Positions 4,445 to 33,161 of a stretch of 64,000 nucleotides of DNA are shown here, in pieces. Positions within the stretch are counted from its first letter, which is position 1. Each line of letters opens with the position of its first letter. This DNA comes from an uncultured bacterium. Lineage in GTDB: Bacteria; Omnitrophota; Omnitrophia; Omnitrophales; Aquincolibacteriaceae. The notes below the pieces were generated by a model, which worked only from the letters and a program-made list of their open reading frames with translations, was not told the DNA's origin and did not search any database. The translations under genes were made by a program, and so were the position numbers. Location: assembly GCA_964508905.1 (NCBI GenBank), contig CAZDVO010000001.1:81374-145373 (forward strand), written 5' to 3'.

Positions 4445-4805
4445 TCTGTTGCATTACGGGCACATCGAGCTTTTGCGTCGCGCTCGGGCGCTCGGGGATT
4501 ATCTTGTCGTGGGACTTTCGGATGATGGATTTAATGCGCAAAAGAAAAAGGTCTGTTATTTCAGCTACGAACAAAGAAAAGCCCTTTTGGAAGCCATTCG
4601 ATATGTGGACCTGGTGATTCCCGAGCGTTCCTGGGAACAAAAAAAAGAAGATGTTAAAACATATCAGATCGATTGTTTTGTGATGGGGGATGACTGGCGC
4701 GGCAAATTCGATTTCTTGAAGGAACGCTGTGAAGTTGTGTACCTCTCAAGAACGCCGGAAATATCAACGACAAAGATCAAAAGCGACCTTGGGAATGAAA
4801 GATAA
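4413..4805 (+). CDS. tagD: glycerol-3-phosphate cytidylyltransferase (CDP-glycerol synthase)
   Basis: 130 aa from the internal ATG; MKRILTYGTFDLLHYGHIELLRRA carries the HxGH nucleotidyltransferase motif; typical TagD/Gct size. Confidence 0.75.
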   Translation: MKRILTYGTFDLLHYGHIELLRRARALGDYLVVGLSDDGFNAQKKKVCYFSYEQRKALLEAIRYVDLVIPERSWEQKKEDVKTYQIDCFVMGDDWRGKFDFLKERCEVVYLSRTPEISTTKIKSDLGNER

Positions 4806-4943
4806 TTTTTTCTCAAGAAAGCGCGCCTTCCCTGGAGCCGGCAAGACTGGAGAGCTCTCAAGGAAAGGCGGAGTTGCGAGATTTTCGAAGAGCAGTATCG
4901 AAAGGGTGTTTTCAAATAATGCAGAAATTTCGGAGGTAAAGGA

Positions 4944-5930: not shown

Positions 5931-6003
5931 GGCGCCGCTAGCGGAGAACATAAGCGGGACAAAGACAAAAGAACCGTTCATCGGCATAGCCGGAGAGGGT
6001 GAA

Positions 6004-7044: not shown

Positions 7045-7143
7045 GTGCCGGCGAGCACTGTCTCCAGACTAAAAGGGGTTTCGCGGCAGAGCTGCGCGGC
7101 CACGTTTAGGCGAACTGGCTGAGTCAAAGAAACGAGAGAACGA

Positions 7144-8091: not shown

Positions 8092-8154
8092 CCCCGCCAT
8101 CAAAAGGGCGGACGTGCTTTGTCGGTAAAAAATGTTTTGGGGGAAAAGGCTACT

Positions 8155-9450: not shown

Positions 9451-9499
9451 AACGAATATATAAAAAAGATCTTAAACAAAATAAAACGGATGTTGTTTG

Positions 9500-10738: not shown

Positions 10739-10749
10739 AGAGGGAGAAG

Positions 10750-11535
10750 ATGAAAAACTGTCCCGTTTTTGTAAGCTCGGCCGATGTTTATTCCGATCTG
10801 TGGTTCCTTTTTTTTGATTTGTTCAAAAAAAACTGGCCGGAATACACGGGCGATATTTATTTAAATACGGAAGAAAAACAGTTCCGCTATGAAGGGTTGA
10901 ATATCAAATGTACTAATGTTGGGAAAAGAGGATGTTTTGGTAAAACCTTTCGAGCGGGATTGGAACAGATAGAGTCATCCTGCGTGCTATTGATTATGGT
11001 AGATTACCTTTTTATGGGGAAGGTTAATGACCAACGGTTGCAAGATTGCTTTCGTTGTTTCCAAAAGAACGATCTAGATTCTCTTTGTTTGTTTCCTGTT
11101 GACTACACGCGGAGCACTTACCTTGATAATGGAATAAACATTGTTATCCCACCCTCGAAAGATATGTTTAGCCTCCAGAGCGCTTTTTGGAAAAAACAGA
11201 TATTGCGAGAGATGGTTTTGCCACACGAAAACCCATGGTTGGCGGAATGGTATGGCACGAGACGCGCCAATGTGGAGAAAATAAAATTAGGCTATACGAC
11301 AAACGACAAACCCATCCCATATTTTGCTCGGGGGGCTCTGCATTCCGCGCGATGGAACGAACCAATCGTGCCTTTCTTAAAAAAATCCGGTTATGAAGTG
11401 GATTTTTCTAAACGGGGTATTTTTATAAAAAAACCAGTGACGCTTTTCATGAGAGCGAAAGGGCGGGTAGAAACTTTTATCCCCCGCTACTTGTCAAATC
11501 TGGATTTGTTGAAGAGGAAATATTTTAAAAAATGA
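10750..11535 (+). CDS. hypothetical protein encoded by a low-GC gene, possibly a GT-A-like sugar transferase
   Basis: 261 aa from the ATG after GAGGGAG; strikingly AT-rich (about 38% GC) against 55-60% in the flanks; no recognisable motif beyond a possible D-x-D-like segment (IMVDYLF). Confidence 0.3.
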   Translation: MKNCPVFVSSADVYSDLWFLFFDLFKKNWPEYTGDIYLNTEEKQFRYEGLNIKCTNVGKRGCFGKTFRAGLEQIESSCVLLIMVDYLFMGKVNDQRLQDCFRCFQKNDLDSLCLFPVDYTRSTYLDNGINIVIPPSKDMFSLQSAFWKKQILREMVLPHENPWLAEWYGTRRANVEKIKLGYTTNDKPIPYFARGALHSARWNEPIVPFLKKSGYEVDFSKRGIFIKKPVTLFMRAKGRVETFIPRYLSNLDLLKRKYFKK

Positions 11536-11822
11536 TTTTAGACAGTATGTCTGTATAAAAGATCAAAATGTTTTAACAGGCTGGCGATAAGGGTTAAAAA
11601 GAGCAGGTTTGAAGCTGTTTTCTTTAGGAGGGAATTTCCCAGAACGATAATGGCGAGAGAAGGTAAAAACAATTATAAACGAGTATTTTGCTGTTTTTTT
11701 GGAGAAAGGAACCTTCTCCAGCTTGAAAATAGTGGAAAAGCGTTGTCATGCTGAGCGCTTTCAAAGTCGCTTAGATGTAAGACGAATGCAGAGAATAGAA
11801 GGTTTAAGCGGAAGGAGAAAGG

Positions 11823-13685
11823 ATGTATCTCAAGGGTGTTATCCCCGAGACGTTTGAAAGAAAGAAGGGGGTTGAAAATTTAAACAAGGCAAGAGCTTTT
11901 TTTCGTAGAACGGGACTGCGCCTGCGCCATTTTGCTCCTCCGGTATTTTTTGCGCTTATTGCAGCGGCGTTTGAAGGGGTGGGGTTTGCCTTGTTGGTTC
12001 CTGTAACGCAAGGGGTGATCAGCGGGAATTTCGATTTCTTGGGAAAATACCCTTTGTTGCAGAAGATTATTGTTTTCGTCCGGGGATGGCACGGATTTTT
12101 GGGGCTGCAGACGGATGTGGTCGTTCTCGTAGGGCTTATTCTTTTTGCGATGTTTTTCAAGAACACATTCAATTACCTTTCCACGCTTGCCGCGGCCCGA
12201 CAGATGGTGCGATTTTCGAATGATCTTCGAAAGGTTATTTTTAGCCGTTATTTGCAGTTTGGTGTGGGGTATTTTCACAAGAAAAGCATCGGGCATCTGC
12301 ACCAGGTTTTGGTGACTTTTGTTCAAATGCTTGGCAAGGAGTTTACCGAGGTCCAGCAATGCGTCTATCAGGGATCCACTCTGTTGATCTATTTGGGGAT
12401 CATGCTGTGGATCTCTCAATCTATGACGCTTTTTACCGTGATCGCTTTTCCTCTCCTTTATCTGGCCTTGCACAGTTTGATTCAGAAGCTCAAACGGTCC
12501 TCATCCTCTTATTCCAAACAATTCATGGATCTCAGCAAAAAGATCGCCAACAGTCTTTCTTGCACGCCTCTGATCAAGGCCTGTAGCTCCGAGACGCAGG
12601 AGCTCAAGTGGTTCTGTTTTGCAAGTAGCCGGGTGGCGGATTGTGAATTTCGGGTAGAGAAAAAAAGACTTCTTGTACAGCCGCTCCAAGAGGTTATCCT
12701 TCTGATCGTCATCTTGATCCTGGTGGCAGCGATGGCCTTTATCGCGTCGGTTTCGCCGGCGGAAAATCGTGTGGCAGGGTTTCTTGTTTTTTTCGTTGTC
12801 TTGCGGCGCGCGGCTTTCTCTTTTGGTGTTTTTAACCGTATTCAGGCGGCGCTTGCGGTGATGAAGGGGCCGCTAAGCGAGATTGAGGGAGTTCTAAACG
12901 ACGATGAAAAATATTATGTTTCAAGCGGAGAAAAAAAATTCACCTTATTCAAGGAAGGCTTCGAGGTACGAGGACTTAATTTTTCATTCTCAGCCGATAC
13001 TCGGGAAATCCTTTCGGATATCTGTTTAAAGATCCCGAAGGGGAAAAGGATCGCGCTTGTAGGGCCAACCGGCGCGGGAAAGACAACCCTGGTCCATCTT
13101 CTGATGCGGCTCTATGATGCCCCTCCCGGAACGATCTATCTGGATGGTACAGATATCCGGGATTATGAGACGGGATCGCTTCATGAGAAAATGGCACTGA
13201 TCAGCCAGGAAGCGTATCTTTTTAACGCTTCACTCCGGATCAATCTTATCTACGGTCTTCGTCGGGAAGTTTCCGAAGAGGAGATCGTTGCGGCACTTGA
13301 CCTGGCGCGGCTCACAGAGTTGATCGCTCACCAAGCGGATGGGTTGGATGCCGAGATCGGGGAGCGTGGGATTAAACTGTCCGGGGGAGAAAAACAAAGA
13401 CTTTCTATTGCGAGGGCTATCCTCCGCCGACCTGAGATATTGATTTTGGACGAAGCTACAAGTTCTCTGGATACCGTTACGGAGCAGCAGATTCAGGAAG
13501 CTCTCGATGTGGTTGTTCGCGGTCGCACGGCGATTATTATTGCGCACCGTCTTTCCACTATCAAGAATGTGGATAAGATTGTCGTGGTAGAAGATGGGCG
13601 CGTTACGGAAGAAGGTTCTTTGGAAGAACTTCTTGCCCAACGGGGTAAGTTTCAACAGCTTTGGGAAGCCCAGAAGTTTTTCTGA
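11823..13685 (+). CDS. ABC exporter, fused permease-ATPase (MsbA/lipid or glycan flippase type)
   Basis: 620 aa; six N-terminal TM helices; Walker A GPTGAGKTT, ABC signature LSGGEKQR, Walker B ILILDEAT; RBS AAGGAGAAAGG. Confidence 0.8.
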   Translation: MYLKGVIPETFERKKGVENLNKARAFFRRTGLRLRHFAPPVFFALIAAAFEGVGFALLVPVTQGVISGNFDFLGKYPLLQKIIVFVRGWHGFLGLQTDVVVLVGLILFAMFFKNTFNYLSTLAAARQMVRFSNDLRKVIFSRYLQFGVGYFHKKSIGHLHQVLVTFVQMLGKEFTEVQQCVYQGSTLLIYLGIMLWISQSMTLFTVIAFPLLYLALHSLIQKLKRSSSSYSKQFMDLSKKIANSLSCTPLIKACSSETQELKWFCFASSRVADCEFRVEKKRLLVQPLQEVILLIVILILVAAMAFIASVSPAENRVAGFLVFFVVLRRAAFSFGVFNRIQAALAVMKGPLSEIEGVLNDDEKYYVSSGEKKFTLFKEGFEVRGLNFSFSADTREILSDICLKIPKGKRIALVGPTGAGKTTLVHLLMRLYDAPPGTIYLDGTDIRDYETGSLHEKMALISQEAYLFNASLRINLIYGLRREVSEEEIVAALDLARLTELIAHQADGLDAEIGERGIKLSGGEKQRLSIARAILRRPEILILDEATSSLDTVTEQQIQEALDVVVRGRTAIIIAHRLSTIKNVDKIVVVEDGRVTEEGSLEELLAQRGKFQQLWEAQKFF

Positions 13686-13760: not shown

Positions 13761-13943
13761 GACGCCCTCCTAGAGATAGTGTTGTTGCTGAAATACCGCT
13801 AGAGTGAAACCCATCGACCGGCGGGAGGTGAAGTTGCAACCCCATGAATCTCTAAGTATAACGGATATAATAATTTATGATTCATGCGCCCGCCCAACAG
13901 GGGTTGGGTGCAAATACGCGTTATAGAAAGAATCGAGAGATTT

Positions 13944-14017
13944 GCGCCCGTAGCTCAATTGGATAGAGCACGACACTACGGATGTCGGGGTTGCAGGTTC
14001 AACTCCTGCCGGGCGCG
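13944..14017 (+). tRNA. tRNA-Arg (anticodon ACG)
   Basis: 74 nt cloverleaf folded by hand: acceptor GCGCCCG/CGGGCGC, anticodon loop CTACGGA, T-loop TTCAACT; CCA not encoded. Confidence 0.9.
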
Positions 14018-14026
14018 ATTTTAAAA

Positions 14027-14679: not shown

Positions 14680-14728
14680 AGGGCGAGCCAATGGCCCTGC
14701 GTTTTTGTTGGAAGATCACCGGTTTCGG

Positions 14729-14815
14729 GGAGAGGTGGCAGAGCGGTTGAATGCGGCGGTCTTGAAAACCGCTAGGCTCGCAAGGGTCTCGGGGGTTCGA
14801 ATCCCTCCCTCTCCG
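14729..14815 (+). tRNA. tRNA-Ser (anticodon TGA)
   Basis: 87 nt class II tRNA with long variable arm; 3-bp D stem; anticodon loop CTTGAAA; T-loop TTCGAAT; CCA not encoded. Confidence 0.9.
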
Positions 14816-14978
14816 TTTTTCTCAATGAAAAACGACCTTGCCGTCGAGATTAAGGGAAATCTCGTTCGACAAGGCCGCTGGCTTCGGGGAGGGACTCGAA
14901 GGGAGCCCTGTTTTGAAATAGAACTCGATGTTCTGTTTCAAGGGCGGGTGGCCGACCCGAAGCGGAAGCGAAGGGCGC

Positions 14979-15001
14979 CGAATCCCTCCCTCTCCGTTTT
15001 T
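14979..15001 (+). repeat. 23-bp perfect direct repeat of the 3' end of tRNA-Ser(TGA) (GAATCCCTCCCTCTCCGTTTTTC), exactly 180 bp downstream of the original
   Basis: identical 23-mer at 14799-14821 and 14979-15001; the upstream flank of copy 2 retains degenerate T-arm-like sequence (GGGCGCCGAATCC vs GGGGGTTCGAATCC). Confidence 0.6.
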
Positions 15002-15057
15002 CCTGTCCTAAGGATGTTGTGAAATTTGAATGGATCTAAAGAAGGAGCCGAGGACAC

Positions 15058-24194: not shown

Positions 24195-25718
24195 ATGAAA
24201 GTTTTATTGACGGGTTTGACGAAATCGGCTCCCAAAGCAGATCTTTTTGTGGCCGGGTATTTTAAAGGAGAAAAAAGCCTTCCGTCCCTGAAAAAGATCG
24301 AATCGGTATTCTCCAAGGCGGTTGAAGCGGCCCTGGCGAAAAAACGTTTTGAAGGAAAACCCGGAGAAGTTTTTAGTTCTTATCAGGCGGGATACGGTCA
24401 AGCGCAGGAAATCGCGCTGCTTGGGATGGGTTCAAAAAAAGATCTCAAAGTCGCTTCGTTGCGAAAGGCTGTTGGAAATCTGGTCGGGTTTGCGACGAGC
24501 CGCAAAGCCGCGAAGGTTCGCGTGCTTCTTGATTCTTTTGTGACCGAGAACGTTTCTGCGGAGGAAGTCGCGAAGATCTTCACGGAGGTCTCTTTTTTGG
24601 CAGCCTATCGCTTTACGGAATACAAAACGAAAAAAGAAGACGCCTCCAAAACTCCCGCCTCGATCGAACTGGTGACTGGGGATAAAGGGGTAGTGGCCTC
24701 TGCCAAGGCGGGGATGGTGCGCGCCGAGAAGATCGCCAAGGCGGTGATCTTTGCCCGAGACCTGAACAACGAACCGGGCAATGTGATGACGGCTGTGAGG
24801 CTTGCCGAGGAAGCCAGGAAGATCGCAGAAGCGAAAAAGTTGAAATATGAAGTCCTGGGCCTCGAAGAGCTGAAGGCCCTTGGGATGAACGGGATCCTTG
24901 CCGTGAATCAGGGGAGCGTGACGCCTCCAGCTCTGATCATCATGGAATATGGCGAGGAGCACAAGGCGAACGGGACCGTTTGTTTGGTGGGCAAAGGGGT
25001 GACCTTTGATACCGGCGGGATCTCGATCAAGCCGTCGAAGGGGATGGAGGAAATGAAGTATGACAAGTCCGGCGCGATCGCGGTCGTCGCGACGATGGGG
25101 CTTGTGGCGGAACTAAAATTAAAACTGCACGTTGTCGGTCTCGCGCCTTCGGTTGAAAATAATGTGGCGAACGATCCGCAGCGTCCGGGAGATATCATCC
25201 GGATGTACAACAAAAAGACCGTGGAAGTGATGAATACGGACGCCGAAGGACGGCTTATCCTGGCGGACGCGCTTTCTTACTGCGAAAAATACAAGCCGAC
25301 CGCGATCATCGATGCGGCCACGCTGACGGGGATGTGTCATCACACGTTCGGCGATAAGACCTGTGGGATACTGGGGACCGATCAGAAGCTGATCGATGCC
25401 ATCCGGAATGCCGGGGAAAAGGTCGGGGAGCGTTGCTGGCAGCTTCCTCTTTGGGAAGAATACGGCGAGGCCGTGAAATCTCATCATTCCGATCTGAAAA
25501 ATGTTGGTGACGGTTATGCCGGAACCATTACGGCCGCCATGTTTCTTAAGGAATTCGTTCCGGCCAAAACACCATGGGTGCATCTGGACATTGCGGGGAC
25601 CGCTTATTGTTCCGCTAATCGCTTTGATTGCGTCAAAGGAGCCAATGGCTTCGGCGTGCGTCTTTTCGCGGAAGTCCTTTCAAATTGGGGGCTGGAGAGT
25701 TTCTCCCAGGCCGCCTAA
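24195..25718 (+). CDS. pepA: leucyl aminopeptidase (M17)
   Basis: 507 aa; M17 active-site signature NTDAEGRL; RBS GGAGG. Confidence 0.85.
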   Translation: MKVLLTGLTKSAPKADLFVAGYFKGEKSLPSLKKIESVFSKAVEAALAKKRFEGKPGEVFSSYQAGYGQAQEIALLGMGSKKDLKVASLRKAVGNLVGFATSRKAAKVRVLLDSFVTENVSAEEVAKIFTEVSFLAAYRFTEYKTKKEDASKTPASIELVTGDKGVVASAKAGMVRAEKIAKAVIFARDLNNEPGNVMTAVRLAEEARKIAEAKKLKYEVLGLEELKALGMNGILAVNQGSVTPPALIIMEYGEEHKANGTVCLVGKGVTFDTGGISIKPSKGMEEMKYDKSGAIAVVATMGLVAELKLKLHVVGLAPSVENNVANDPQRPGDIIRMYNKKTVEVMNTDAEGRLILADALSYCEKYKPTAIIDAATLTGMCHHTFGDKTCGILGTDQKLIDAIRNAGEKVGERCWQLPLWEEYGEAVKSHHSDLKNVGDGYAGTITAAMFLKEFVPAKTPWVHLDIAGTAYCSANRFDCVKGANGFGVRLFAEVLSNWGLESFSQAA

Positions 25719-25778: not shown

Positions 25779-26219
25779 ATGAAGAAAATCCTCGCTTGTT
25801 TTACCGTTTTTTTGATGATCTCGTCCATACTGTGCCGCCCCGCGCTTGCGGTCGGGGGGAAACAATTCGGGGCGTCGCTTCTTTTGCCGACCACGGGTCA
25901 GGCCTTGAATGGTGAGATCGGTGCGACCAAAACCAAGATCATGGCAGGGGTCGAAGTGGCCGCGGTGACCGCGACCATTCTTCTCGCGACGCTGACCTCC
26001 GGCGGGCTTTTTTGGATCGGTCTCGCTCCCTTGCTTGCCAATCACGCCTGGAGCGCCACGGATGCCTTCAAAAGCGCTCGCCGGGCGAATACGGAGAACG
26101 ACCCGTACATCCAGCAGCAGCTTTCATCCGCTCAAAGAACCCTGGATCTTTCCCGTCAAAGCCGTTTCGATAGGGAATCCGACATTCGCCAGAGGATCTT
26201 GAATTCGAGCGAACAATAG
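25779..26219 (+). CDS. hypothetical secreted/membrane protein
   Basis: 146 aa; signal peptide plus hydrophobic segment; sits in an otherwise empty intergenic stretch and is followed by a terminator. Confidence 0.35.
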   Translation: MKKILACFTVFLMISSILCRPALAVGGKQFGASLLLPTTGQALNGEIGATKTKIMAGVEVAAVTATILLATLTSGGLFWIGLAPLLANHAWSATDAFKSARRANTENDPYIQQQLSSAQRTLDLSRQSRFDRESDIRQRILNSSEQ

Positions 26220-26267
26220 AAAATAAGAGCCGCGCTCTTTGATTTTCTGATAGTGTGAAGGCCTGGT

Positions 26268-26300
26268 CCGTGGGATCAGGCCTTTTTTTTCAACCCGAAA
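26268..26300 (+). terminator. rho-independent terminator
   Basis: AGGCCTGGTCC...GATCAGGCCT hairpin followed by a T8 run. Confidence 0.45.
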
Positions 26301-26306
26301 GGATGT

Positions 26307-27635
26307 ATGAAAGATTCTCACCGAAGACTCGCGCTTTCGCAGCTACGTATTGCCACCGAAGTGTGGCAGGGCGTCAAAAATGACACGATGCCCGCGGATC
26401 GCTGGCTAGCGCGCTATTTTTATCAAAACCGTAAAAAGATCGGTTCCCGGGACCGCAGATTCATTTCCGAGACCATTTATTCGATCTTTCGGCACAAGAG
26501 TTTTCTGGAAGCTTGGGTCGAGAAGGCGAAGCCCCGGCCGGTCATGAACGACCTTGAGACAGCGGAATGCCTCTGCCTTTTTGCCGCCGCGAAGGAAGGG
26601 CTTCTCTCCAAAGAAGATTTTCAGGATACCTTTCAGCAGAGCGGGCGTCTCTATGCCGCATTGACTGAACACCTTCTCCCCGAAGAGGGACAAAAATCCA
26701 AAGAAGAGATGATGGCACGGCTTTATTCGTTTCCCCTGTGGCTGATCGAACACTGGGTCCAGGTTTTTGGCGTTGTGGAGACGGAGCGTCTTTTGGGTTT
26801 TTTCCAGCAGCGACCACTTTTGGTGCTTCGCGCGAACACCTTGAAGATCAGCCGCAAAAGGCTCGTAGACCTTTTTCGACGGATGGGCGTCGAGGCGAAT
26901 TCCACGACCCGTTCTTATTTTGGTCTTATTCTGCAGGAGCGGCGTAATGTGTTCGATACGCCTGCTTTCCGCGATGGATGGTTCGAAGTTCAGGATGAAG
27001 GGAGTCAGATGGTCTGTCAAACCATGGATCCCAAGCCAGGGGAAAGCGTTTGGGATGTCTGCGCAGGAGGCGGAGGGAAAAGCCTTCTCTTGGCCGCGAT
27101 GATGGAGAATAAGGGTCGTATTGTGGCGACGGATCTTCGATCCTACAAATTGGAAGAACTCAAAAAAAGAGCAAAACGCGCCGGGATCTTTAATATTTTC
27201 CCTGCTGAGCTCGAGCGGATCGGAGAACTCAAACTGGCCCAAAGGGGTTTTGATAAGATCCTTGTCGATGCGCCTTGTTCCGGTACGGGAACCTTGGGTC
27301 GCAATCCGGACGCGAAATGGAAAGTCAATTCTTCATGGTTTGAGGCTCTTCCGAAGGAACAGCTCGGGATCCTCGAAAAAGCGTTACCGCATCTTGCCGA
27401 GACCGGGAAACTTTATTATGCTACGTGTTCGGTGGAGGCAGCGGAGAACGAAGAGGTTGCAAAGGCTTTTTTAGCCGCGCATCCCGAAATGGAACTGGTC
27501 CCGTGCGGTGAGGCGGGTGAACCGTTCTTCAAGCTTTGGCCGCCTGAAAGCGGCACAGATGGTTTTTTTCTAGCGGTTTTCCAAAAAGTTCATGCTGGAC
27601 CTATGATGGAGAAAGAGACATGGAAAAAAAGATAG
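26307..27635 (+). CDS. rsmB: 16S rRNA m5C methyltransferase (NOL1/NOP2/Sun family)
   Basis: 442 aa; SAM motif VWDVCAGGGGKS and DAPCSGTG catalytic motif. Confidence 0.8.
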   Translation: MKDSHRRLALSQLRIATEVWQGVKNDTMPADRWLARYFYQNRKKIGSRDRRFISETIYSIFRHKSFLEAWVEKAKPRPVMNDLETAECLCLFAAAKEGLLSKEDFQDTFQQSGRLYAALTEHLLPEEGQKSKEEMMARLYSFPLWLIEHWVQVFGVVETERLLGFFQQRPLLVLRANTLKISRKRLVDLFRRMGVEANSTTRSYFGLILQERRNVFDTPAFRDGWFEVQDEGSQMVCQTMDPKPGESVWDVCAGGGGKSLLLAAMMENKGRIVATDLRSYKLEELKKRAKRAGIFNIFPAELERIGELKLAQRGFDKILVDAPCSGTGTLGRNPDAKWKVNSSWFEALPKEQLGILEKALPHLAETGKLYYATCSVEAAENEEVAKAFLAAHPEMELVPCGEAGEPFFKLWPPESGTDGFFLAVFQKVHAGPMMEKETWKKR

Positions 27636-27994
27636 TGGCGATGTTCCTTGTGGTTTTTTTTCTCGGGGGAACGGCGCTTTTTGCGGAGAAGCCCGGAGAG
27701 CCTTTTAAAGATAGCGGATTCAAACAAGTTGCGAAGCTTGAAGGACGTGGGTGGCTGAATATCCTGACCTGTCCGGCGGAACTTGTGTATACGCTCAAGG
27801 CGGAACCTCAAGCTCATCCCAAAGCCTGGCCCGCTACTTATATTCCGCGATTTTTTGGCAATATCGTGACGAGGCTGACCTCCGGGATCAATGACATTCT
27901 GGTTCTACCTTGGGGCGTTCCTTTTTCCGCGGATGCAACCCCGCTGACCCGGAGATTTGATCTCCCAGATTATGTTTGGCAAAAAGACCTGTAA
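27620..27994 (+). CDS. small secreted protein, paralogue A of a three-member family in this window
   Basis: 124 aa; signal peptide; shares a K-x-G-[RQ]-G-[LW]-x-N...D[IL]...G...G...P pattern with 31778-32119 and 29403-29924. Confidence 0.5.
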   Translation: MEKKIVAMFLVVFFLGGTALFAEKPGEPFKDSGFKQVAKLEGRGWLNILTCPAELVYTLKAEPQAHPKAWPATYIPRFFGNIVTRLTSGINDILVLPWGVPFSADATPLTRRFDLPDYVWQKDL

Positions 27995-28023
27995 CAGCGC
28001 ATAGTTCCCGAGCGATTCTTCCC

Positions 28024-28782
28024 ATGAAAACCAATCAGACCGCAGTGATCCTTGTCTGCCCTGAAAACCCCGACAACATTGGGGCCGTTGCCCGAGCTGT
28101 CAAGAATATGGGTTTTTCAGATCTTCGTTTGGTGACTCCGCCCCAAAGATGGCGCACGAAGGCCAGAAAGATGGCGGTGTCTGCCGAGGACGTGCTTAAG
28201 CGGGCTCTTGTTTTTTCATCGCTTCAGAAAGCCGTATCTGATCTCGGTACTGTGGTCGGAACCTCGCGTCGGGGGGGTGGACATCGGGGAGTTTTCCTTC
28301 CTTTCGACGCCGGAATCTCGAAGCTCCGGACGGCAACGTTTCGTCAGAAGGTGGGTATCGTTTTTGGGCGGGAATCGAAGGGGCTCTCGAATGATGAAAG
28401 CGCTTTATGCGATTATTTGGTCACGATCCCGACCGGAGCGGTATACCCATCCCTGAATCTTGCTCAGGCAGTGATGGTGATGCTTTTTGCGCTCATTTGG
28501 CATCAGCGAGAAAAAACGGCTCCGGTGCTCGAACGGGCTCTCGATAAAAAAGGGATCGAAGAAGCAGTGGCCCACTTTGAGCAGGCGCTTCATGTACTGG
28601 GCTATCGTAGGGGGGGGGCGGATCTTCTGCCAAGGATATTGAAAACCCTGCGGGGTCTCGTTAAGAGGGCCGGACTTTTAGAGCCTGAAGCGCAGATGAT
28701 CAAAGGGCTTTCGCGGCGGATCCGAGAAAAAGTTTTGAGTTGTCCGCGGAGCCCGGGTAGAATGAACAAAAAGGAGTCATAG
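28024..28782 (+). CDS. SpoU/TrmH-family RNA 2'-O-methyltransferase (TrmJ-like)
   Basis: 252 aa from the internal ATG; TrmJ-like N-terminus VILVCPENPDNIGAVARAVKNMGF. Confidence 0.65.
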   Translation: MKTNQTAVILVCPENPDNIGAVARAVKNMGFSDLRLVTPPQRWRTKARKMAVSAEDVLKRALVFSSLQKAVSDLGTVVGTSRRGGGHRGVFLPFDAGISKLRTATFRQKVGIVFGRESKGLSNDESALCDYLVTIPTGAVYPSLNLAQAVMVMLFALIWHQREKTAPVLERALDKKGIEEAVAHFEQALHVLGYRRGGADLLPRILKTLRGLVKRAGLLEPEAQMIKGLSRRIREKVLSCPRSPGRMNKKES

Positions 28783-28785
28783 ATC

Positions 28786-29331
28786 ATGGATGAACGAACG
28801 CTCAAAGAAGAACTTTTGAAGTTGATCCAGGAAAAAGCTGTAGTTCGTGGGGAGCGCAGGCTGGCGTCCGGAAAGATCTCTCAATACTACATTGATGGCA
28901 AGCAGGTAACGCTTGATGCTCAGGGACTCTTTCTGATGGCAAAAGTGATCCTGCATATGGCGCAAGCGGCCGGTGCTGATGCGGTAGGCGGGCCAACGCT
29001 GGGGGCCGATCCTATCGCTGCGGCTGTTTCCGTTCTAAGTTCTCAGAGCGGAAAACCCCTCAAAGCGTTTATTGTCCGCAAAGAAGCAAAAGATCATGGG
29101 ATGCAAAAGATGATCGAAGGGCCTCTTCTTGCTGAAGGCGACAAGATCGTGATGCTTGAGGATGTGATCACCACGGGCGGATCTGTGCTGAAGGCGATTA
29201 AAGAAGTGGAAAAGCTTGGCGCCAAGGTTGTGAAGACGATTTGTCTCGTGGACCGGAATGAAGGTGCGGCGGAGGTTCTTGCCAATTACAATTATTCCCC
29301 GATCTTTACCCTTCGAGAGCTAGGTCTTTAA
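28786..29331 (+). CDS. pyrE: orotate phosphoribosyltransferase
   Basis: 181 aa; PRPP-binding motif VMLEDVITTGGS. Confidence 0.85.
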   Translation: MDERTLKEELLKLIQEKAVVRGERRLASGKISQYYIDGKQVTLDAQGLFLMAKVILHMAQAAGADAVGGPTLGADPIAAAVSVLSSQSGKPLKAFIVRKEAKDHGMQKMIEGPLLAEGDKIVMLEDVITTGGSVLKAIKEVEKLGAKVVKTICLVDRNEGAAEVLANYNYSPIFTLRELGL

Positions 29332-29353
29332 ATTTTAGAGAAGCAGGAAGACA

Positions 29354-29390
29354 TAAAAAAAGCCCCGCCAAATGGCGGGGCTTTTTTATT
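29354..29390. terminator. bidirectional rho-independent terminator
   Basis: A7-GCCCCGCC-AAAT-GGCGGGGC-T6; sits between convergent genes. Confidence 0.6.
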
Positions 29391-29402
29391 TTAAAGGACT
29401 AC

Positions 29403-29924
29403 TTATTTCTTTACGTAATCGTAAGGATTGTGCTTTTTGGCCACTTTGACCGGAGCCGGCTTTGCTTCGGAGACCGTTACGATCGGTTCCTGAGAAGCGG
29501 TTTCCGTCACAGCGGGAACCATGGCCGCTGCGACCGGAGCCTGGATCGGCTCGACGACCTCAGGGGATTCTTCTAAGCAGTTCTCATAGGATTTTGAGAC
29601 AGGGAAGCCGTTGAAGCCCGGAACCCAGAAAAGGGCTACGTCAACGATACCGGAACTTGCGCGGAGTGCCGTGCAGCCGAGACCTCCGGCCATACCCGTG
29701 AGCGTCCCGATGAAAGGCGTTTCGGTCTTTGTTTTGCTGACGGTCTGGACGACGATATCCACGGGGCTGGTCGCAGCATTAACAAGACCGCGGCCGAACA
29801 TCCCGCCTGTTTTTTCTTTATAGTTTTCCGACGATGCCATTTCCCAAACATCCTTTGCAAAGCTCATCGGGACCAGCAAAAAAGCGCAGATCACAAGAGC
29901 CAGCAATACCTTTGCTTTCTTCAT
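29403..29924 (-). CDS. small secreted protein, paralogue C, with a Pro/Ala/Val-rich C-terminal tail
   Basis: 173 aa from the ATG after GGGAGG; signal peptide MKKAKVLLALVICAFLLVPMSFA; shared family pattern (see 27620-27994). Confidence 0.5.
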   Translation of the reverse strand: MKKAKVLLALVICAFLLVPMSFAKDVWEMASSENYKEKTGGMFGRGLVNAATSPVDIVVQTVSKTKTETPFIGTLTGMAGGLGCTALRASSGIVDVALFWVPGFNGFPVSKSYENCLEESPEVVEPIQAPVAAAMVPAVTETASQEPIVTVSEAKPAPVKVAKKHNPYDYVKK

Positions 29925-29993
29925 GAACAACCTCCCTTTTTTAGAAAAGTTCGAGTAGGACCAAAAGGTTTGAAAGCGGTCTCTCAGGAACAA

Positions 29994-30200
29994 CAGGGTT
30001 AAATATTACAATGAATAAAAATAACAAGCAATAATATTTTTTTGATTTATCGCCATCTTTTGTAAGCGCATTAAATACAAAGGTTTACATGAAATTAGCA
30101 AAAGCGTAAAAACTAGCAACTATTGACAATTTATAGTATGTAGGATAGGTTATGTTGTAGTATATAGCTATAATGGACTCTGAAATAGCAATACTAAACA
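29994..30200 (+). promoter_or_regulatory. AT-rich (about 28% GC) island with several promoter-like hexamers (TTGACA..., TATAAT) upstream of a small HTH gene
   Basis: composition and hexamers read directly. Confidence 0.3.
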
Positions 30201-30212
30201 AGGAGGGATAGA

Positions 30213-30437
30213 GTGGAACAGCCGAAAGAGCAACAGAGTGCGGAGTACCAATATCCCCGCCGCGAGAGAACTCAGATCATGACGCCTAAGGAAGCGGCGA
30301 AGTATCTGGGATTCCATCTCGTGACGATCTATCGTTTGCTGAAGAAGGGTGAGGTTCCGGCAACGAAGATCGGCGGACAGTGGCGTTTCAAAAAAGACGT
30401 CCTGGATGCCTGGTTGACCGATCGCATGAACCAATAA
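30213..30437 (+). CDS. excisionase-family helix-turn-helix DNA-binding protein
   Basis: 74 aa; GTG start 5 nt after AAGGAGGG; AAKYLGFHLVTIYRLLKKGEVPATKIGGQWRFKKDVLDAWL matches the excisionase-type HTH domain pattern. Confidence 0.6.
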   Translation: MEQPKEQQSAEYQYPRRERTQIMTPKEAAKYLGFHLVTIYRLLKKGEVPATKIGGQWRFKKDVLDAWLTDRMNQ

Positions 30438-30457
30438 GGATCTTGGGGCTGATCACG

Positions 30458-30473
30458 GTTATCCTCGGATAAC
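30458..30473. promoter_or_regulatory. perfect 7-bp inverted repeat GTTATCC-tc-GGATAAC just downstream of the HTH gene
   Basis: read directly; candidate protein-binding site. Confidence 0.25.
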
Positions 30474-30539
30474 ATATTGCAGGTGAGTTGAGCCCGTAGG
30501 TTCCTCGTATTTTGCTTAGACCCTTGTGGGGACAGGGAT

Positions 30540-31592
30540 CTAAGACGTTTTTCCGCGCAGTAAGGATCGTCCGATCTTTCTGTGCGGGGCTGGCATGGCG
30601 GTTTTTCCAAGCTTTGTGAGCGGGAACCATTTTCCGTGCCGCCCTTCCGGTTTTTCAGCGAGACACGGCAACGTGTAAACGTCCAAAAAGATCCTGTATT
30701 TTGTGAAAGCGTGTTGGACGGTGAATGCTATTTTCGGATCTCTCCCCCGAGCGCAGGGTTCGGCCAGTAGGGCGGCCTTCTGATCCCAGAAAGGGAACAT
30801 CCAAAGCCCTCCCCAGCGGCCTTCCGTAGGTTGTTTTTCAAGCCAGACCTCATTGCGATTATTTTTCAATACAAGCGCAGCCATGCGGCGTTTCTCATAC
30901 AGATCTCTTCCGGAGCGCGCGGGGTAAAGGATCTCTTCCCGCGTAGTGTGGGCGATGCAGCTTTTTTTTACGGGGCAACTATGACAGAGGGGTGTCAGAG
31001 GAAAACAGACAGTTGCACCCAATTCCATAAGCGCCTGGTTCAGATCACCGGGATTTCTGACGGGAAGTAGCGAGGCGGCGAGTTCCCAGAGCTTTTCCCG
31101 GGTCCCAGACTTATCCACGCTTTGCGCTACGGCGAAAATCCGCGTTAGGATGCGAATGACGTTACCATCCAGAACGGGGGCTTTCTCTCCGAAGGCAATG
31201 CTCGCGATCGCTCCTGCTGTATAACGGCCGATGCCGGGGAGCTCTTTCAGCTTGTCCGCTGTTTGAGGGATCTTGCCTCCAAAGTCTTTCAATATGATCC
31301 GAGCGGCTTGATGGAACATTCTGACTCGGCGATAGTAACCAAGGCCAGCCCAAAAGCGAAGCGCTTCACCGAGAGGAGCCTTTGCGAATACACTCAAGGA
31401 GGGAAATCGTTTGATCCAGCGGCTGTAATAGGGAATAACTGTCGCGACCTGGGTTTGTTGCAACATGATCTCGGAGACCCATATTTTGTAGGGATCGTGC
31501 GTGCGTCTCCAGGGAAGGTCCCTTTTGTGGCGGGAGTACCAGCGGAGAAGAGGTCTTGTAATTTTCAAAAGCGCGACAGAGGGCGTTTTCAT
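30540..31592 (-). CDS. mutY: A/G-specific adenine DNA glycosylase
   Basis: 350 aa; HhH-GPD core, 4Fe-4S cysteine cluster (C-x6-C-x2-C-x5-C) and a C-terminal NUDIX-like domain. Confidence 0.8.
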   Translation of the reverse strand: MKTPSVALLKITRPLLRWYSRHKRDLPWRRTHDPYKIWVSEIMLQQTQVATVIPYYSRWIKRFPSLSVFAKAPLGEALRFWAGLGYYRRVRMFHQAARIILKDFGGKIPQTADKLKELPGIGRYTAGAIASIAFGEKAPVLDGNVIRILTRIFAVAQSVDKSGTREKLWELAASLLPVRNPGDLNQALMELGATVCFPLTPLCHSCPVKKSCIAHTTREEILYPARSGRDLYEKRRMAALVLKNNRNEVWLEKQPTEGRWGGLWMFPFWDQKAALLAEPCARGRDPKIAFTVQHAFTKYRIFLDVYTLPCLAEKPEGRHGKWFPLTKLGKTAMPAPHRKIGRSLLRGKTS

Positions 31593-31777
31593 GGGCGGTA
31601 TGATAGCGGGTCGACGCTAGGGCGGCAAGGGACTCTGATAAAAGAGACGGGAAGAGAGGAAAAGGATGATACCCTCCCCCCACCGCATTAGAGGTTGTCG
31701 GTCACCATCACTTATGGCAGAATAAAAACAAGCAAATGGCAACATGCAGGGTTCTAAAAACCAAGGGAGGAAAAGCA

Positions 31778-32119
31778 ATGAAAAAGATCATGAGTCTGGT
31801 AATGGTTCTTTCGATGCTTCTCGCACCGGTGGCATTTGCAGCAAGTCCGTGGACTGAAGAGAAGGGCTATGGGGACAAGATCTCCGGCAAGCTTCAGTAT
31901 GGTCTGACCAACACGCTCCTCGGCTGGATCGATATTTTCGCGACGCCGAATGAGTATGCCAATGAAGGCAAGAATGTGTGGGCGGGCGTTGGCCAAGGGC
32001 TCGTCGATGCCGTGACGAACACGGTGGGTGGTGCGATCCAGTTGGTGACTTTTCCGATCCCTGCGGATCTTCCGCTCCCAAATGGTGGGGTGGATATTAG
32101 CGGTACCGCGAAGAAGTAA
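31778..32119 (+). CDS. small secreted protein, paralogue B
   Basis: 113 aa; ATG after AGGGAGG; signal peptide MKKIMSLVMVLSMLLAPVAFA; shared family pattern. Confidence 0.5.
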   Translation: MKKIMSLVMVLSMLLAPVAFAASPWTEEKGYGDKISGKLQYGLTNTLLGWIDIFATPNEYANEGKNVWAGVGQGLVDAVTNTVGGAIQLVTFPIPADLPLPNGGVDISGTAKK

Positions 32120-32140
32120 TCAAGAACACTGCATGTTGAA

Positions 32141-32175
32141 AGCGCCGGGCTTTGTGCCCGGCGCTTTTTATTTTT
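32141..32175 (+). terminator. rho-independent terminator
   Basis: AGCGCCGGGC-TTTGT-GCCCGGCGCT followed by a T-run. Confidence 0.6.
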
Positions 32176-32256: not shown

Positions 32257-33045
32257 TCAGTTCGAGCAAGCGAATGGGGCCAGAGCCCGGAGCATTTCCT
32301 GATGGATCTGACCGTTTGTCGCCAGGTTCTGTAGGCCTAGGAGCGTAAGGGGACTTCCCGAAAAGTCTGTGAGCTTACCTCCCGCCTCTTCGACGATCAT
32401 CATGCCAGCGGCTTTATCCCAAGGAGATAGTTTCATTTCGTAGTAGCCGTCGAAACGGCCACAAGCAACATAGCAAAGGTCGATCGCGGCCGATCCGCCG
32501 CGGCGTATCCCTTGAATCTGGGTCAGGAAAACCCGAAGCATGTTCAAGTAGGTGTCCGGGTCGTTCTTTCGATCGTAGGGAAATCCTGTGGCCAGTAGCG
32601 ATTCCGAAAGAGTCCGGGTCTTGGATACATGGATGGGACGATTGTTCAAAAAGGCACCTTGGCCGCGTTCAGCAAAGAAAAGTTCTTTCCGGAATGGGTC
32701 AAAAACCCCTCCCATGATGAGCTGCCCGCTTTTTTCGAGACCGATCGAAACGGATACGATCGGAAATCCATGAGCAAAATTCGTTGTTCCATCGATCGGG
32801 TCAATGATCCAGCGGTATTCCGATCCGGAGATGGCGGGAGATTCTTCCGCAAGGATCGAGTGGTCGGGAAAGCGTCTCAAAAGGAGGTCGACCACGGCTT
32901 TTTCCGAGGCTTTATCGATCTCGGTAACGAGGTTGAACTCGCCCTTTTTGGTGATCTTTTGTTCCTTTCCGAAATGAGAGCGGATGATCTTGCCGGCCTT
33001 GTCGAGAGCTTCCAAGAGCGTACTTTTAATTTTGGAGGTCTTCAT
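32257..33045 (-). CDS. inositol monophosphatase family protein (SuhB/IMPase-like)
   Basis: about 262 aa; IMPase motifs DPIDGT and WIIDPIDGTTNF-like; the metal-binding D-x-x-D region is present. Confidence 0.7.
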   Translation of the reverse strand: MKTSKIKSTLLEALDKAGKIIRSHFGKEQKITKKGEFNLVTEIDKASEKAVVDLLLRRFPDHSILAEESPAISGSEYRWIIDPIDGTTNFAHGFPIVSVSIGLEKSGQLIMGGVFDPFRKELFFAERGQGAFLNNRPIHVSKTRTLSESLLATGFPYDRKNDPDTYLNMLRVFLTQIQGIRRGGSAAIDLCYVACGRFDGYYEMKLSPWDKAAGMMIVEEAGGKLTDFSGSPLTLLGLQNLATNGQIHQEMLRALAPFACSN

Positions 33046-33161
33046 ATAAAATAAGAGCCCTTTGGGTGGTTTAGCTGACCATTTGCCCGCCATTGTAGCG
33101 GAAGCCCAAAAGGAGCGCAATCTTCTCAAAGATCTATAACCCTAGAGAGTCGAGGCATTTC

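What the first reader, a model, noticed from the sequence alone, without database searches (positions are those of the whole stretch)
27620..32119. Three paralogous small secreted proteins scattered among housekeeping genes within 4.5 kb
ORFs 27620-27994 (+), 29403-29924 (-) and 31778-32119 (+) each have a signal peptide and a shared about 70-aa core: K-x-G-[RQ/K]-G-[LW]-x-N-x-L, then an acidic-hydrophobic [DE][IL] segment, then two or three glycine-centred turns and a terminal F/W-P. One copy carries an extra Pro/Ala/Val-rich tail. Each has its own RBS and most have their own terminator. The pattern resembles the small proteins found associated with exosortase systems, but I cannot confirm that from memory. 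A locally expanded family of exported mini-proteins like this often marks surface-layer, pilin-like or sorting-signal proteins.
Basis: seen in the sequence. Interest (0 to 1): 0.55.

Follow-up and report, generated by a model that had tools for sequence, protein, structure and literature searches.

The report
Three exported TIGR04073 helix-hairpin mini-proteins
Three small exported proteins in an Omnitrophota genome are ancient relatives of one another from a known but uncharacterised bacterial family (TIGR04073), and the family's helical core unexpectedly resembles the membrane-binding tail region of the human lipid-transfer proteins VPS13A and VPS13C.

Summary
The three ORFs are real genes at the stated coordinates. 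Each has a Sec-type signal peptide and a strong ribosome-binding site. B (29403-29924, -) and C (31778-32119, +) match NCBIfam TIGR04073, "exosortase system-associated protein", at E 1e-12 and 2.5e-7, both just under the curated cutoff. A (27620-27994, +) is a divergent relative, linked to B by profile-profile comparison (E 9e-7) and by the same predicted helix topology. This is not a local expansion, though. A, B and C are separate orthologue groups that hold fixed positions in a conserved housekeeping block (PepA-RsmB-A-SpoU-PyrE-B-HTH-MutY-C-SuhB-ICDH) across about 30 Omnitrophota species. No exosortase or PEP-CTERM gene lies in the 64-kb window. AlphaFold predicts an antiparallel pair of long amphipathic helices rich in small residues. 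A diverse family profile hits only human VPS13C and VPS13A in the PDB (E 8e-6), in their C-terminal amphipathic-helix (ATG2_C) region; shuffle and reciprocal-search controls support the match. My best reading is that these are periplasmic helix hairpins that bind membrane surfaces. B adds a flexible tail ending in an invariant Y-V-K-K. Function remains untested.

The parts
27620..27994 (+). Gene A (124 aa): divergent A-type relative of the TIGR04073 family. Signal peptide aa 1-22, mature domain aa 23-124 ending in the conserved TPLTRRFDLPDYVW.
   Evidence: ORF. 87 orthologues, all Omnitrophota where named. Alignment A2. hhalign to the B group gives E 9e-7. Family HMM E 1.6e-3, third of 1055 ORFs. 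AF2 helices 9-27, 29-43 and 49-77.
27620..27685 (+). Signal peptide of A (MEKKIVAMFLVVFFLGGTALFA | EK).
   Evidence: Read directly from the sequence. LFA-A/E is conserved in the orthologues.
27608..27611 (+). Ribosome-binding site of A (GGAG, 8 nt before the ATG), lying inside the 3' end of rsmB. A overlaps the rsmB stop by 16 nt.
   Evidence: The same 16-nt overlap occurs in locus L001.
29403..29924 (-). Gene B (173 aa): B-type TIGR04073-family protein.
   Evidence: TIGR04073 at 47.6-48 bits, E 1e-12. Orthologues are named TIGR04073 by JGI. Alignment A3.
29856..29924 (-). Signal peptide of B (MKKAKVLLALVICAFLLVPMSFA | KD).
   Evidence: Read directly from the sequence. FAKD is invariant in 32 orthologues.
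29568..29855 (-). Core domain of B (mature residues 1-96). Helices 12-29, 32-44 and 47-74, then an ordered aromatic/Pro-rich segment FWVPGFNGFPV...NCLEE.
   Evidence: AF2 pLDDT is at least 90 for residues 1-90. Conservation.
29418..29567 (-). Pro/Ala/Val/Gln/Glu-rich tail of B, variable in sequence and length, with lower model confidence and no regular secondary structure predicted.
   Evidence: Alignment A3. pLDDT 58-82.
29406..29417 (-). Invariant C-terminus of B, Y-V-K-K (aromatic-x-K(K)-COOH).
   Evidence: 119 of 120 orthologues end in YVKK. 16 of 24 diverse B-type representatives end in [YWF]-x-K(K).
29931..29937 (-). Ribosome-binding site of B (AGGGAGG, 6 nt before the ATG).
29356..29387 (-). 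Intrinsic terminator after B (14-bp stem with 8 GC pairs, followed by a T-run).
31778..32119 (+). Gene C (113 aa): C-type TIGR04073-family protein. Signal peptide aa 1-21 (31778-31840).
   Evidence: TIGR04073 at 30.7 bits, E 2.5e-7. Family HMM E 3e-37. Orthologues are named TIGR04073 by NCBI. Alignment A4.
31765..31770 (+). Ribosome-binding site of C (GGGAGG, 7 nt before the ATG).
32138..32168 (+). Intrinsic terminator after C (13-bp stem with 9 GC pairs, followed by a T-run).

Best explanation
A, B and C are three anciently diverged paralogues of one family of small Sec-exported proteins, NCBIfam/TIGRFAM TIGR04073, encoded in a Candidatus Omnitrophota genome. SHOWN: each has a signal-peptidase-I-type leader. 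B and C match the family model, and A is a divergent relative of B. Each type forms its own orthologue group and keeps its place in a conserved housekeeping gene block across many Omnitrophota species. Their conservation is mixed (median identity B 67%, C 71%, A 50%): B and C sit within the range of the slower-evolving neighbouring enzymes, and A is the least conserved gene of the block. PREDICTED: the core of about 75-90 aa folds into an antiparallel pair of long helices rich in Gly, Ala, Ser and Thr. The first helix is kinked at a conserved T-S/x-P, and an aromatic/Pro-rich strap follows the pair. No segment is hydrophobic enough to span a membrane. SHOWN: the family profile has specific, control-tested sequence similarity to the C-terminal amphipathic-helix region (ATG2_C / ATG_C) of human VPS13C and VPS13A. 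That region is described as two repeats of an antiparallel helix pair of about 75 aa, and it binds lipid droplets and bilayers with packing defects. INFERRED MECHANISM: after export, the hairpins lie on the periplasmic face of the inner or outer membrane through their amphipathic helices. There they act as non-enzymatic envelope factors that sense, stabilise or tether the membrane surface. B adds a flexible Pro/Ala-rich spacer and an invariant C-terminal Y-V-K-K that probably docks to a second envelope component. A is co-translated with rsmB. B and C are monocistronic, each with its own terminator.
For: Family membership: (117 of 126 diverse relatives hit TIGR04073). Homology of A; divergent A orthologues in L021 and L022 themselves hit the family HMM; helix topology is the same in the AF2 models of A and B. 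Ancient paralogy and synteny: identical gene order in L001; 38 species loci, all Omnitrophota where named; A-type present in 31 of 36 and C-type in 22 of 30 loci with enough flank, at near-constant spacing; identity table. Only three copies in the window. Fold: B has mean pLDDT 85.5 and at least 90 across the core. Amphipathicity is comparable to the VPS13C fragment (muH 0.4-0.65 against 0.47), and there is no TM-grade segment. VPS13 link: the A6 profile against 177,635 PDB sequences hits only VPS13C (E 8.4e-6) and VPS13A (1.4e-5), with a second weaker repeat about 90 aa upstream. Separate C-type and B-type profiles each return VPS13C and VPS13A as their top two hits (E 1.3e-4 and 0.095). 5000 shuffles of the fragment reach at most 9.6-12.4 bits against 32-33 bits for the real sequence. 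In the reciprocal phmmer search with the 51-aa human fragment against 12,331 sequences, the top ~70 hits are all family members. hhalign gives 96% probability and E 3e-9; window C against the fragment gives z 6.0, with 0 of 2000 shuffles reaching it. Function of ATG2_C: PMC7613979, PMC12081312, PMC13430412.
Confidence: 0.5

Rival explanations
1. They are accessory components of a PEP-CTERM/exosortase protein-sorting system, as the family name says. They would act with an exosortase encoded elsewhere in the genome, for example as periplasmic partners in handling sorted proteins or exopolysaccharide.
For: B and C match TIGR04073, 'exosortase system-associated protein'. JGI and NCBI name the orthologues accordingly. 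The window holds a polysaccharide/O-antigen-type cluster at 468-13685 with GT4 glycosyltransferases, LicD, Wzy_C and an ABC exporter. This reading does not exclude membrane binding.
Against: To my knowledge the name rests on phylogenetic profiling, not on experiment (this is from memory). No exosortase or PEP-CTERM gene is in the 64-kb window, in the annotated flanks of an orthologous B locus, or in three unrelated family contexts. The flanks of the other species loci were checked for gene order only. The three genes are embedded in housekeeping synteny, and one is inside the rsmB operon. No paper links Omnitrophota with PEP-CTERM. Absence from about 3% of a genome proves little.
Confidence: 0.2
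2. They are soluble periplasmic helical-bundle proteins, such as small chaperones or stress proteins in the manner of Spy, CpxP or ZraP, or subunits of a homo-oligomer. On this view the VPS13 resemblance is convergence of Gly-rich helices.
Against: There is no sequence or fold match to Spy, CpxP or any solved periplasmic chaperone. The VPS13 similarity is order-specific rather than compositional and is reciprocal. 7 of 150 family representatives carry a lipobox-like motif, which would place them at a membrane.
Confidence: 0.15
3. B is an envelope tether. Its helical head binds a membrane, and its invariant C-terminal Lys is cross-linked to peptidoglycan, as the C-terminal Y-R-K of Braun's lipoprotein is cross-linked by L,D-transpeptidases.
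For: The tail varies in sequence and length but ends in aromatic-x-K(K)-COOH in 119 of 120 orthologues and 16 of 24 diverse B-type representatives. That pattern is typical of a terminal recognition motif. Lpp ends in Y-R-K with the Lys linked to mDAP (from memory, not checked here).
Against: There is no lipobox. No L,D-transpeptidase gene was seen in the block. A and C lack the motif. Resemblance over three residues is weak evidence.
Confidence: 0.1
4. A is not a true relative. Its resemblance to B comes from the signal peptide and from chance in a short helical protein, so there are only two paralogues.
For: A has no TIGR04073 hit, and only 4 of 31 A orthologues hit it weakly (best E 0.008). 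A-C similarity is at noise. The AF2 model of A is only moderately confident (pLDDT 72.5).
Against: With signal peptides removed, A-B still gives blastp E 1.3e-4 with 0 of 1000 shuffles reaching the score, and hhalign gives E 9e-7 over 76 collinear columns. A is the third-best of 1055 ORFs for the broad family HMM, with a 500-fold gap in E-value to the next. hhalign to the diverse family gives E 6e-5. Divergent A orthologues hit the family HMM at 20-23 bits. Helix order and lengths match those of B.
Confidence: 0.1

Closest known systems
NCBIfam/TIGRFAM TIGR04073, 'exosortase system-associated protein, TIGR04073 family'
   Same: Proteins of about 110-130 aa with a signal peptide and a core of about 75 aa. 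B and C align to model positions 6-68 and 3-66 of 75 at E 1e-12 and 2.5e-7. 117 of 126 diverse relatives hit the model. Orthologues already carry this name in JGI and NCBI records.
   Different: Scores of the window proteins are below the curated 50-bit cutoff, and A is not detected at all. In Omnitrophota the family has split into three fixed orthologue types embedded in housekeeping synteny. B-type members carry a long tail ending in YVKK. No exosortase context was found.
ATG_C / ATG2_C region of eukaryotic VPS13 and ATG2 bridge-like lipid-transfer proteins (amphipathic helix pairs that bind lipid droplets and membranes with packing defects)
   Same: The unit is an antiparallel helix pair of about 75 aa (PMC7613979; AF2). 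The shared motif runs G-x-T-x-I-x-T-x-P-[VI]-E ... G-x-G-x-G-L-V-x-A-V ... G-G-I-[VI]-D. Profile, reciprocal and shuffle tests support it. Amphipathicity is similar.
   Different: The bacterial proteins are stand-alone, Sec-exported and single-unit. They are not a cytosolic C-terminal appendage of a giant RBG protein. There is no Pfam PF09333 hit, the match spans only about 50 residues, and no structural comparison is possible because the VPS13 region is unresolved (PMC13430412). Homology as against convergence is undecided.
Braun's lipoprotein Lpp (comparison for B's tail only)
   Same: Small exported envelope protein whose C-terminus is aromatic-x-Lys-COOH (Lpp: Y-R-K, from memory; B: Y-V-K-K).
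   Different: B has no lipobox or lipid anchor and no coiled-coil. Its spacer is low-complexity and variable in length. Peptidoglycan linkage is untested.
PEP-CTERM proteins (exosortase substrates)
   Same: Exported proteins, and the family name ties them to the same system.
   Different: There is no C-terminal PEP motif, TM helix or Arg cluster in A, B, C or any ORF of the window. They are not substrates.

Membership tests
TIGR04073 (exosortase system-associated protein family) | Whole-protein score at or above the curated NCBIfam cutoff (50 bits) | tested here: not met
   B scores 47.6 bits (48.0 for the mature form), C scores 30.7 and A has no hit. The E-values (1e-12 and 2.5e-7) are nevertheless highly significant.
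TIGR04073 (exosortase system-associated protein family) | Statistically significant homology to the family domain | tested here: met
   B and C: plus a family HMM from 150 representatives at 2.5e-22 and 3.4e-37. 117 of 126 relatives hit TIGR04073. A is linked only through profiles: E 9e-7 to the B group, and 1.6e-3 and 6e-5 to the family.
TIGR04073 (exosortase system-associated protein family) | Small protein (about 110-130 aa) with an N-terminal signal peptide | tested here: met
   A is 124 aa and C is 113 aa. B is 173 aa because of its tail. The A-x-A leaders are read from the sequence and conserved in orthologues. 125 of 150 representatives have a leader-like N-terminus, and the median length is 130 aa.
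TIGR04073 (exosortase system-associated protein family) | Co-occurrence with an exosortase/PEP-CTERM system in the same genome | tested here: inconclusive
   None was found in the 64-kb window, in the annotated flanks of an orthologous B locus, or in three other contexts. Whole genomes could not be read with these tools.
ATG_C / ATG2_C amphipathic-helix region of VPS13/ATG2 | Match to Pfam ATG_C (PF09333) | tested here: not met
   None of 126 family members hits it at E up to 10. The 40-51-aa VPS13 fragments also return no Pfam family, so this test has little power.
ATG_C / ATG2_C amphipathic-helix region of VPS13/ATG2 | Significant, specific sequence similarity to the VPS13 C-terminal helix-pair repeat | tested here: met
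   E 8e-6 against the PDB with VPS13C and VPS13A as the only hits, shuffle control 0 of 5000, reciprocal search specific, hhalign 96%.
ATG_C / ATG2_C amphipathic-helix region of VPS13/ATG2 | Antiparallel pair of amphipathic helices of about 75 aa | tested here: met
   AF2 models of B and A. Hydrophobic moments are comparable to the VPS13C fragment. The description of ATG_C is from PMC7613979.
ATG_C / ATG2_C amphipathic-helix region of VPS13/ATG2 | Located at the C-terminal end of a repeating-beta-groove lipid-transfer protein | tested here: not met
   A, B and C are stand-alone exported proteins of 113-173 aa.
ATG_C / ATG2_C amphipathic-helix region of VPS13/ATG2 | Binds lipid monolayers or bilayers with packing defects | not testable with these tools
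   This needs liposome or cell experiments. It has been shown for VPS13C ATG2_C in PMC12081312 and PMC13430412.
PEP-CTERM sorting substrates | C-terminal PEP motif followed by a hydrophobic helix and a basic cluster | tested here: not met
   A regex scan of all six-frame ORFs of the window found 0 hits. The C-termini of A, B and C are ...VWQKDL...DYVKK and ...SGTAKK.
Type IV pilin-like proteins | Class III leader (G | F/M-T-L-x-E) and a hydrophobic N-terminal helix in the mature protein | tested here: not met
   The leaders are SPase-I type, and the mature N-termini are polar (EKPGE, KDVWE, ASPWT). Only a sub-threshold TrbC hit appears, at E 0.035.
Braun lipoprotein (Lpp)-type peptidoglycan-linked proteins | Lipobox with Cys at +1, C-terminal Lys, and a covalent peptidoglycan link | tested here: inconclusive
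   The lipobox is absent (feature not met). The C-terminal aromatic-x-K(K) is present and conserved in B-type members. Peptidoglycan linkage cannot be tested here.

The most novel reading that the evidence does not exclude
TIGR04073 is the prokaryotic, stand-alone, periplasm-exported counterpart of the ATG_C/ATG2_C helix-pair module that eukaryotic VPS13 and ATG2 use to dock on lipid surfaces. The similarity would then reflect common ancestry. These bacterial mini-proteins would be sensors or binders of membrane packing defects in the diderm envelope. B-type members would additionally be tethered to a second envelope layer through their invariant C-terminal Lys.
Probability: 0.3. Interest if true: 0.7.

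Novelty: new member of a known kind. Interest (0 to 1): 0.42.

Why it matters
On the plain reading this is ordinary. Two things go beyond that. First, the trio is a fixed and fairly well conserved feature of a core housekeeping block across Omnitrophota, and one copy overlaps the end of rsmB. That points to a basic envelope role rather than an accessory island, and it questions the 'exosortase-associated' label for this phylum. Second, the reproducible similarity to the ATG2_C amphipathic helices of VPS13A and VPS13C gives the family its first testable mechanism: binding to membrane surfaces with packing defects. If the similarity is homology, it also offers a candidate bacterial source for a module of the eukaryotic bridge-like lipid-transfer proteins, whose beta-groove core is already traced to bacteria.

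Tried and rejected
- Pfam scans of A, B, C and of 126 family members found nothing above noise.
- The afdb50 fold library was not available.
It worked only with the B orthologue alignment, so the loci retrieved are biased towards Omnitrophota.
- Narrow orthologue profiles (A3, A4, A7) against PDB sequences gave only noise.
- A Pfam scan of the VPS13 fragments gave no family, so the matched stretch could not be formally assigned to PF09333.
- A phmmer search with the VPS13C fragment against the PDB found only VPS13A and VPS13C, plus weak alpha-synuclein noise. A proper reverse ATG_C profile therefore could not be built.
- Extending beyond the window to look for an exosortase failed. One end protein was not on record, and the other was found only on short contigs.
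- Cluster look-ups for taxonomy of 20 diverse representatives gave Omnitrophota or no name.
- Literature searches for TIGR04073, 'exosortase system-associated', exosortase with Omnitrophota, and PEP-CTERM with Omnitrophica returned nothing relevant.
- Considered and rejected: PEP-CTERM substrates, pilins, S-layer proteins, integral membrane hairpins (no TM-grade segment), and a recent tandem or local expansion.

Full report
**1. What is there**

The region holds three short ORFs among recognisable housekeeping genes.
- Upstream of A are a leucyl aminopeptidase gene (24195-25718), a 146-aa exported protein gene (25779-26219) and rsmB (26307-27635).
- A is at 27620-27994 (+).
- A SpoU-type RNA methyltransferase gene follows (ORF from 27976, probable ATG at 28024, ending at 28782), then pyrE (28786-29331).
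- B is at 29403-29924 (-).
- Next come a 74-aa excisionase-family HTH gene (30213-30437) and mutY (30540-31592, -).
- C is at 31778-32119 (+).
- Downstream are an inositol monophosphatase gene (32257-33129, -), an isocitrate dehydrogenase gene and a malate dehydrogenase gene.

Orthologue alignments fix the start codons at 27620, 29924 and 31778. Each protein begins with Lys/Glu-Lys, a hydrophobic core and an A-x-A cleavage site. None has a lipobox.

Ribosome-binding sites are GGAG, AGGGAGG and GGGAGG, 6-8 nt upstream of the starts. B and C are each followed by a 13-14-bp GC-rich hairpin and a T-run. A has no terminator. It overlaps the rsmB stop codon by 16 nt, and the same overlap is present in another species.

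**2. Are the three related?**

With signal peptides included, every pair gives blastp E of 2e-4 to 3e-6, but much of that signal comes from the leaders.

On mature sequences the picture changes:
- A-B stays significant: E 1.3e-4, z 4.8, and 0 of 1000 shuffles reach the score.
- B-C is marginal: z 3.0.
- A-C is at noise.

Profile methods settle the question.
- NCBIfam TIGR04073 ("exosortase system-associated protein") matches B at 47.6 bits (E 1.3e-12) and C at 30.7 bits (E 2.5e-7). The curated cutoff is 50 bits. A is not matched.
- Orthologue-group profiles with leaders removed give A-B 91% probability, E 9e-7, over 76 collinear columns.
- A profile of the B and C cores, searched against 1.84 billion representatives, found 739 proteins at E <= 1e-3 and 153 at E <= 1e-10. 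Of 126 sequences scanned (mature B and C plus 124 of the best representatives), 117 hit TIGR04073.
- An HMM built from the 150 best representatives was run against all 1055 six-frame ORFs of the window. It ranks C (3.4e-37), B (2.5e-22) and A (1.6e-3) on top, with the next ORF at 0.86.
- hhalign of the A group against the diverse family gives E 6e-5.
- Divergent A orthologues in L021 and L022 themselves hit the family HMM.

B and C are therefore clear family members, and A is a divergent third type. There is no fourth copy in the 64 kb.

**3. Not a local expansion**

Homologue searches returned 87, 221 and 253 relatives for A, B and C. All that carry an organism name are Candidatus Omnitrophota, apart from one short contig labelled Geobacteraceae that is probably mis-binned.

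The locus of a B orthologue with only 66% identity shows the same gene order throughout: PepA, 146-aa gene, RsmB, A, SpoU, PyrE, B, HTH, MutY, C, SuhB, ICDH.

A scan of one genome per GTDB species found 38 loci with a B-type gene, at 45-81% identity.
- An A-type gene lies about 2 kb downstream in 31 of 36 loci with enough flank.
- A C-type gene lies about 2 kb upstream in 22 of 30.

Median identity to the window is 67% for B, 71% for C and 50% for A. The neighbours score 76% (PepA), 64% (SpoU methylase), 63% (MutY) and 86% (PyrE).

The three types are thus old, separately maintained genes under purifying selection, fixed within a core housekeeping block.

**4. The exosortase question**

The family name is the only link. 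No ORF in the window has a PEP-CTERM tail.

The polysaccharide cluster at 468-13685 encodes GT4 glycosyltransferases, a hexapeptide transferase, LicD, an acyltransferase, a Wzy_C protein and an ABC exporter, but no exosortase. Ten further less obvious proteins gave none either. They include a weak BamA-like hit, a GGDEF protein and CorA.

Family members in three unrelated contexts sit next to a cytochrome oxidase operon, an MFS transporter and an alginate-export-like gene respectively, not next to exosortases.

Whole genomes could not be inspected, so the association is neither confirmed nor refuted. No paper in the library mentions the family.

**5. Fold**

AlphaFold2 with a 126-sequence alignment gives mature B a mean pLDDT of 85.5, with at least 90 across residues 1-90. 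The model shows:
- helices at 12-29 and 32-44, which form one long helix kinked at the conserved T-S-P;
- an antiparallel helix at 47-74;
- an ordered aromatic/Pro strap (FWVPGFNGFPV);
- a tail of lower confidence with no regular secondary structure until a short C-terminal helix.

Mature A (pLDDT 72.5) has the same order of elements, with helices at 9-27, 29-43 and 49-77.

The helices are rich in Gly, Ala, Ser and Thr and are moderately amphipathic (muH 0.4-0.65). None is hydrophobic enough to span a bilayer.

**6. An unexpected relative**

The diverse family profile, searched against all 177,635 distinct PDB sequences, hits only human VPS13C (E 8.4e-6, residues 3528-3578, with a weaker second match at 3439-3478) and VPS13A (E 1.4e-5).

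The aligned stretch runs from the kink through the third helix. The family consensus is lGWtelftePve...GlgkGl.nav.dtvgGalhlvTF. VPS13C reads GGVTGIITKPVEG...GIGKGLVGAVARPTGGIVDMASSTF.

Several controls support the match.
- 5000 shuffles of the fragment that preserve composition reach at most 9.6-12.4 bits, against 32-33 bits for the real sequence.
- Separate profiles of C-type and B-type representatives each return VPS13C and VPS13A as their top two PDB hits, at E 1.3e-4 and 0.095.
- A reciprocal phmmer search with the 51-aa human fragment, against 12,181 six-frame Omnitrophota ORFs plus 150 representatives, gives only family members among the top ~70 hits. The window's C ORF is one of them.
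- hhalign gives 96% probability and E 3e-9 over 45 columns. Window C against the fragment scores z 6.0, and 0 of 2000 shuffles reach it.

By its position just before the terminal PH domain, this is the region the VPS13 literature calls ATG2_C or ATG_C.
- It binds lipid droplets and membranes with packing defects (PMC12081312, PMC13430412).
- It is invisible in cryo-EM without membrane, which explains why no fold match appeared.

There are caveats.
- The match covers about 50 residues.
- Narrow orthologue profiles do not see it.
- Pfam ATG_C is not hit by any family member.
- Pfam returned nothing for the fragments themselves, so I could not formally confirm the domain boundaries.
- Convergence between Gly-rich amphipathic helices is not excluded.

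**7. The tail of B**

After the core, B-type proteins carry a Pro/Ala/Val/Gln/Glu-rich segment that varies in length and sequence. It nevertheless ends in aromatic-x-K(K)-COOH in 119 of 120 orthologues (YVKK) and in 16 of 24 diverse B-type representatives (YVKK, YVK, YIK, TWKK, YTK, WSK).

A variable spacer with an invariant terminus suggests a terminal docking or attachment motif. It recalls the Y-R-K terminus through which Braun's lipoprotein is linked to peptidoglycan. That comparison is from memory and is untested.

**8. Interpretation**

Shown:
- These are three anciently diverged members of the TIGR04073 family.
- Each carries a Sec-type signal peptide, so export is expected.
- They sit in conserved housekeeping synteny across Omnitrophota.

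Predicted:
- The core is a hairpin of amphipathic helices.

Inferred, at about 0.5 confidence overall:
- The proteins work on the periplasmic face of a membrane, in the way the ATG2_C helices work on organelle surfaces.
- B additionally reaches a second envelope partner through its tail.

Rivals:
- A true exosortase accessory role (0.2, and not exclusive of the above).
- A soluble periplasmic bundle or chaperone (0.15).
- A peptidoglycan tether role for B (0.1).
- A being unrelated to the family (0.1).

**9. Verdict**

The genes are new members of a known, uncharacterised family, and A-type is a divergent subtype that the curated model misses. Interest is moderate. It would rise if the VPS13/ATG2 link proves to be homology.

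Noticed in passing
window 25779-26219 (+): A 146-aa protein with a signal peptide, a Gly/Ala-rich hydrophobic segment and a charged C-terminal helix. It has its own strong terminator (26257-26285). It keeps the same position (between pepA and rsmB) across Omnitrophota, with median identity 74%. It has no Pfam or NCBIfam family and is not a TIGR04073 relative.
   Followed up: partly
window 30213-30437 (+) and intergenic 29925-30212: A 74-aa excisionase-family HTH protein (TIGR01764, E 8.5e-18). It is among the two most conserved genes of the block (median 88% identity, equal to ICDH). It is transcribed divergently from B across a 288-bp AT-rich spacer. An HTH match is still detected in most of the divergent species loci that have lost the mutY or C match. 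It is a candidate regulator of B. I did not look for operator sites.
   Followed up: partly
window 27620-27635: Gene A overlaps the last 16 nt of rsmB, and its ribosome-binding site lies inside rsmB. The same 16-nt overlap occurs in locus L001 (12283-12298). An exported mini-protein therefore appears to be translationally coupled to a 16S rRNA methyltransferase.
   Followed up: partly
window 468-13685: Polysaccharide or O-antigen-type gene cluster: three GT4 glycosyltransferases, a hexapeptide acyltransferase, LicD, an Acyl_transf_3 protein, a GT-D-like protein, a Wzy_C ligase/polymerase and an MsbA-like ABC exporter. It contains no exosortase.
   Followed up: partly
proteins P0190 and P0208: Proteins identical or 98% identical to window C and B are deposited as 'Geobacteraceae bacterium' (locus tags PHG20_09280 and PHG20_09295, contig of 4390 bp). 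Every other named relative is Omnitrophota. The short contig is probably mis-binned.
   Followed up: no
L043 9651-10921; L034 4731-5141 and 11321-11680: Other arrangements of the family occur. L043 has a tandem pair (112 aa followed directly by a 306-aa member with a long tail). In one divergent Omnitrophota species (L034), two C-type copies flank B, and no A-type gene was detected in the 20-kb locus.
   Followed up: partly
window 56635-58413 (+) and 58529-60298 (+): A 592-aa exported protein with a weak BamA/Omp85 match (E 3.8e-7, far below cutoff), which is consistent with a diderm envelope. It is followed by a membrane GGDEF diguanylate cyclase.
   Followed up: no
window 13943-14018, 14729-14815, 60394-60483, 63919-63989: Four tRNA genes (Arg-ACG, Ser-TGA, Ser-CGA, Gly-TCC). 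The long 'ORFs' listed at 14705-15022 and 60283-60522 overlap the two tRNA-Ser genes and are probably not coding.
   Followed up: no
family representatives P0341, P0362, P0376, P0378, P0417, P0435, P0456: 7 of 150 diverse family representatives carry a lipobox-like motif instead of an A-x-A site, for example P0362 with FFSGC. Some members are therefore probably lipid-anchored.
   Followed up: no
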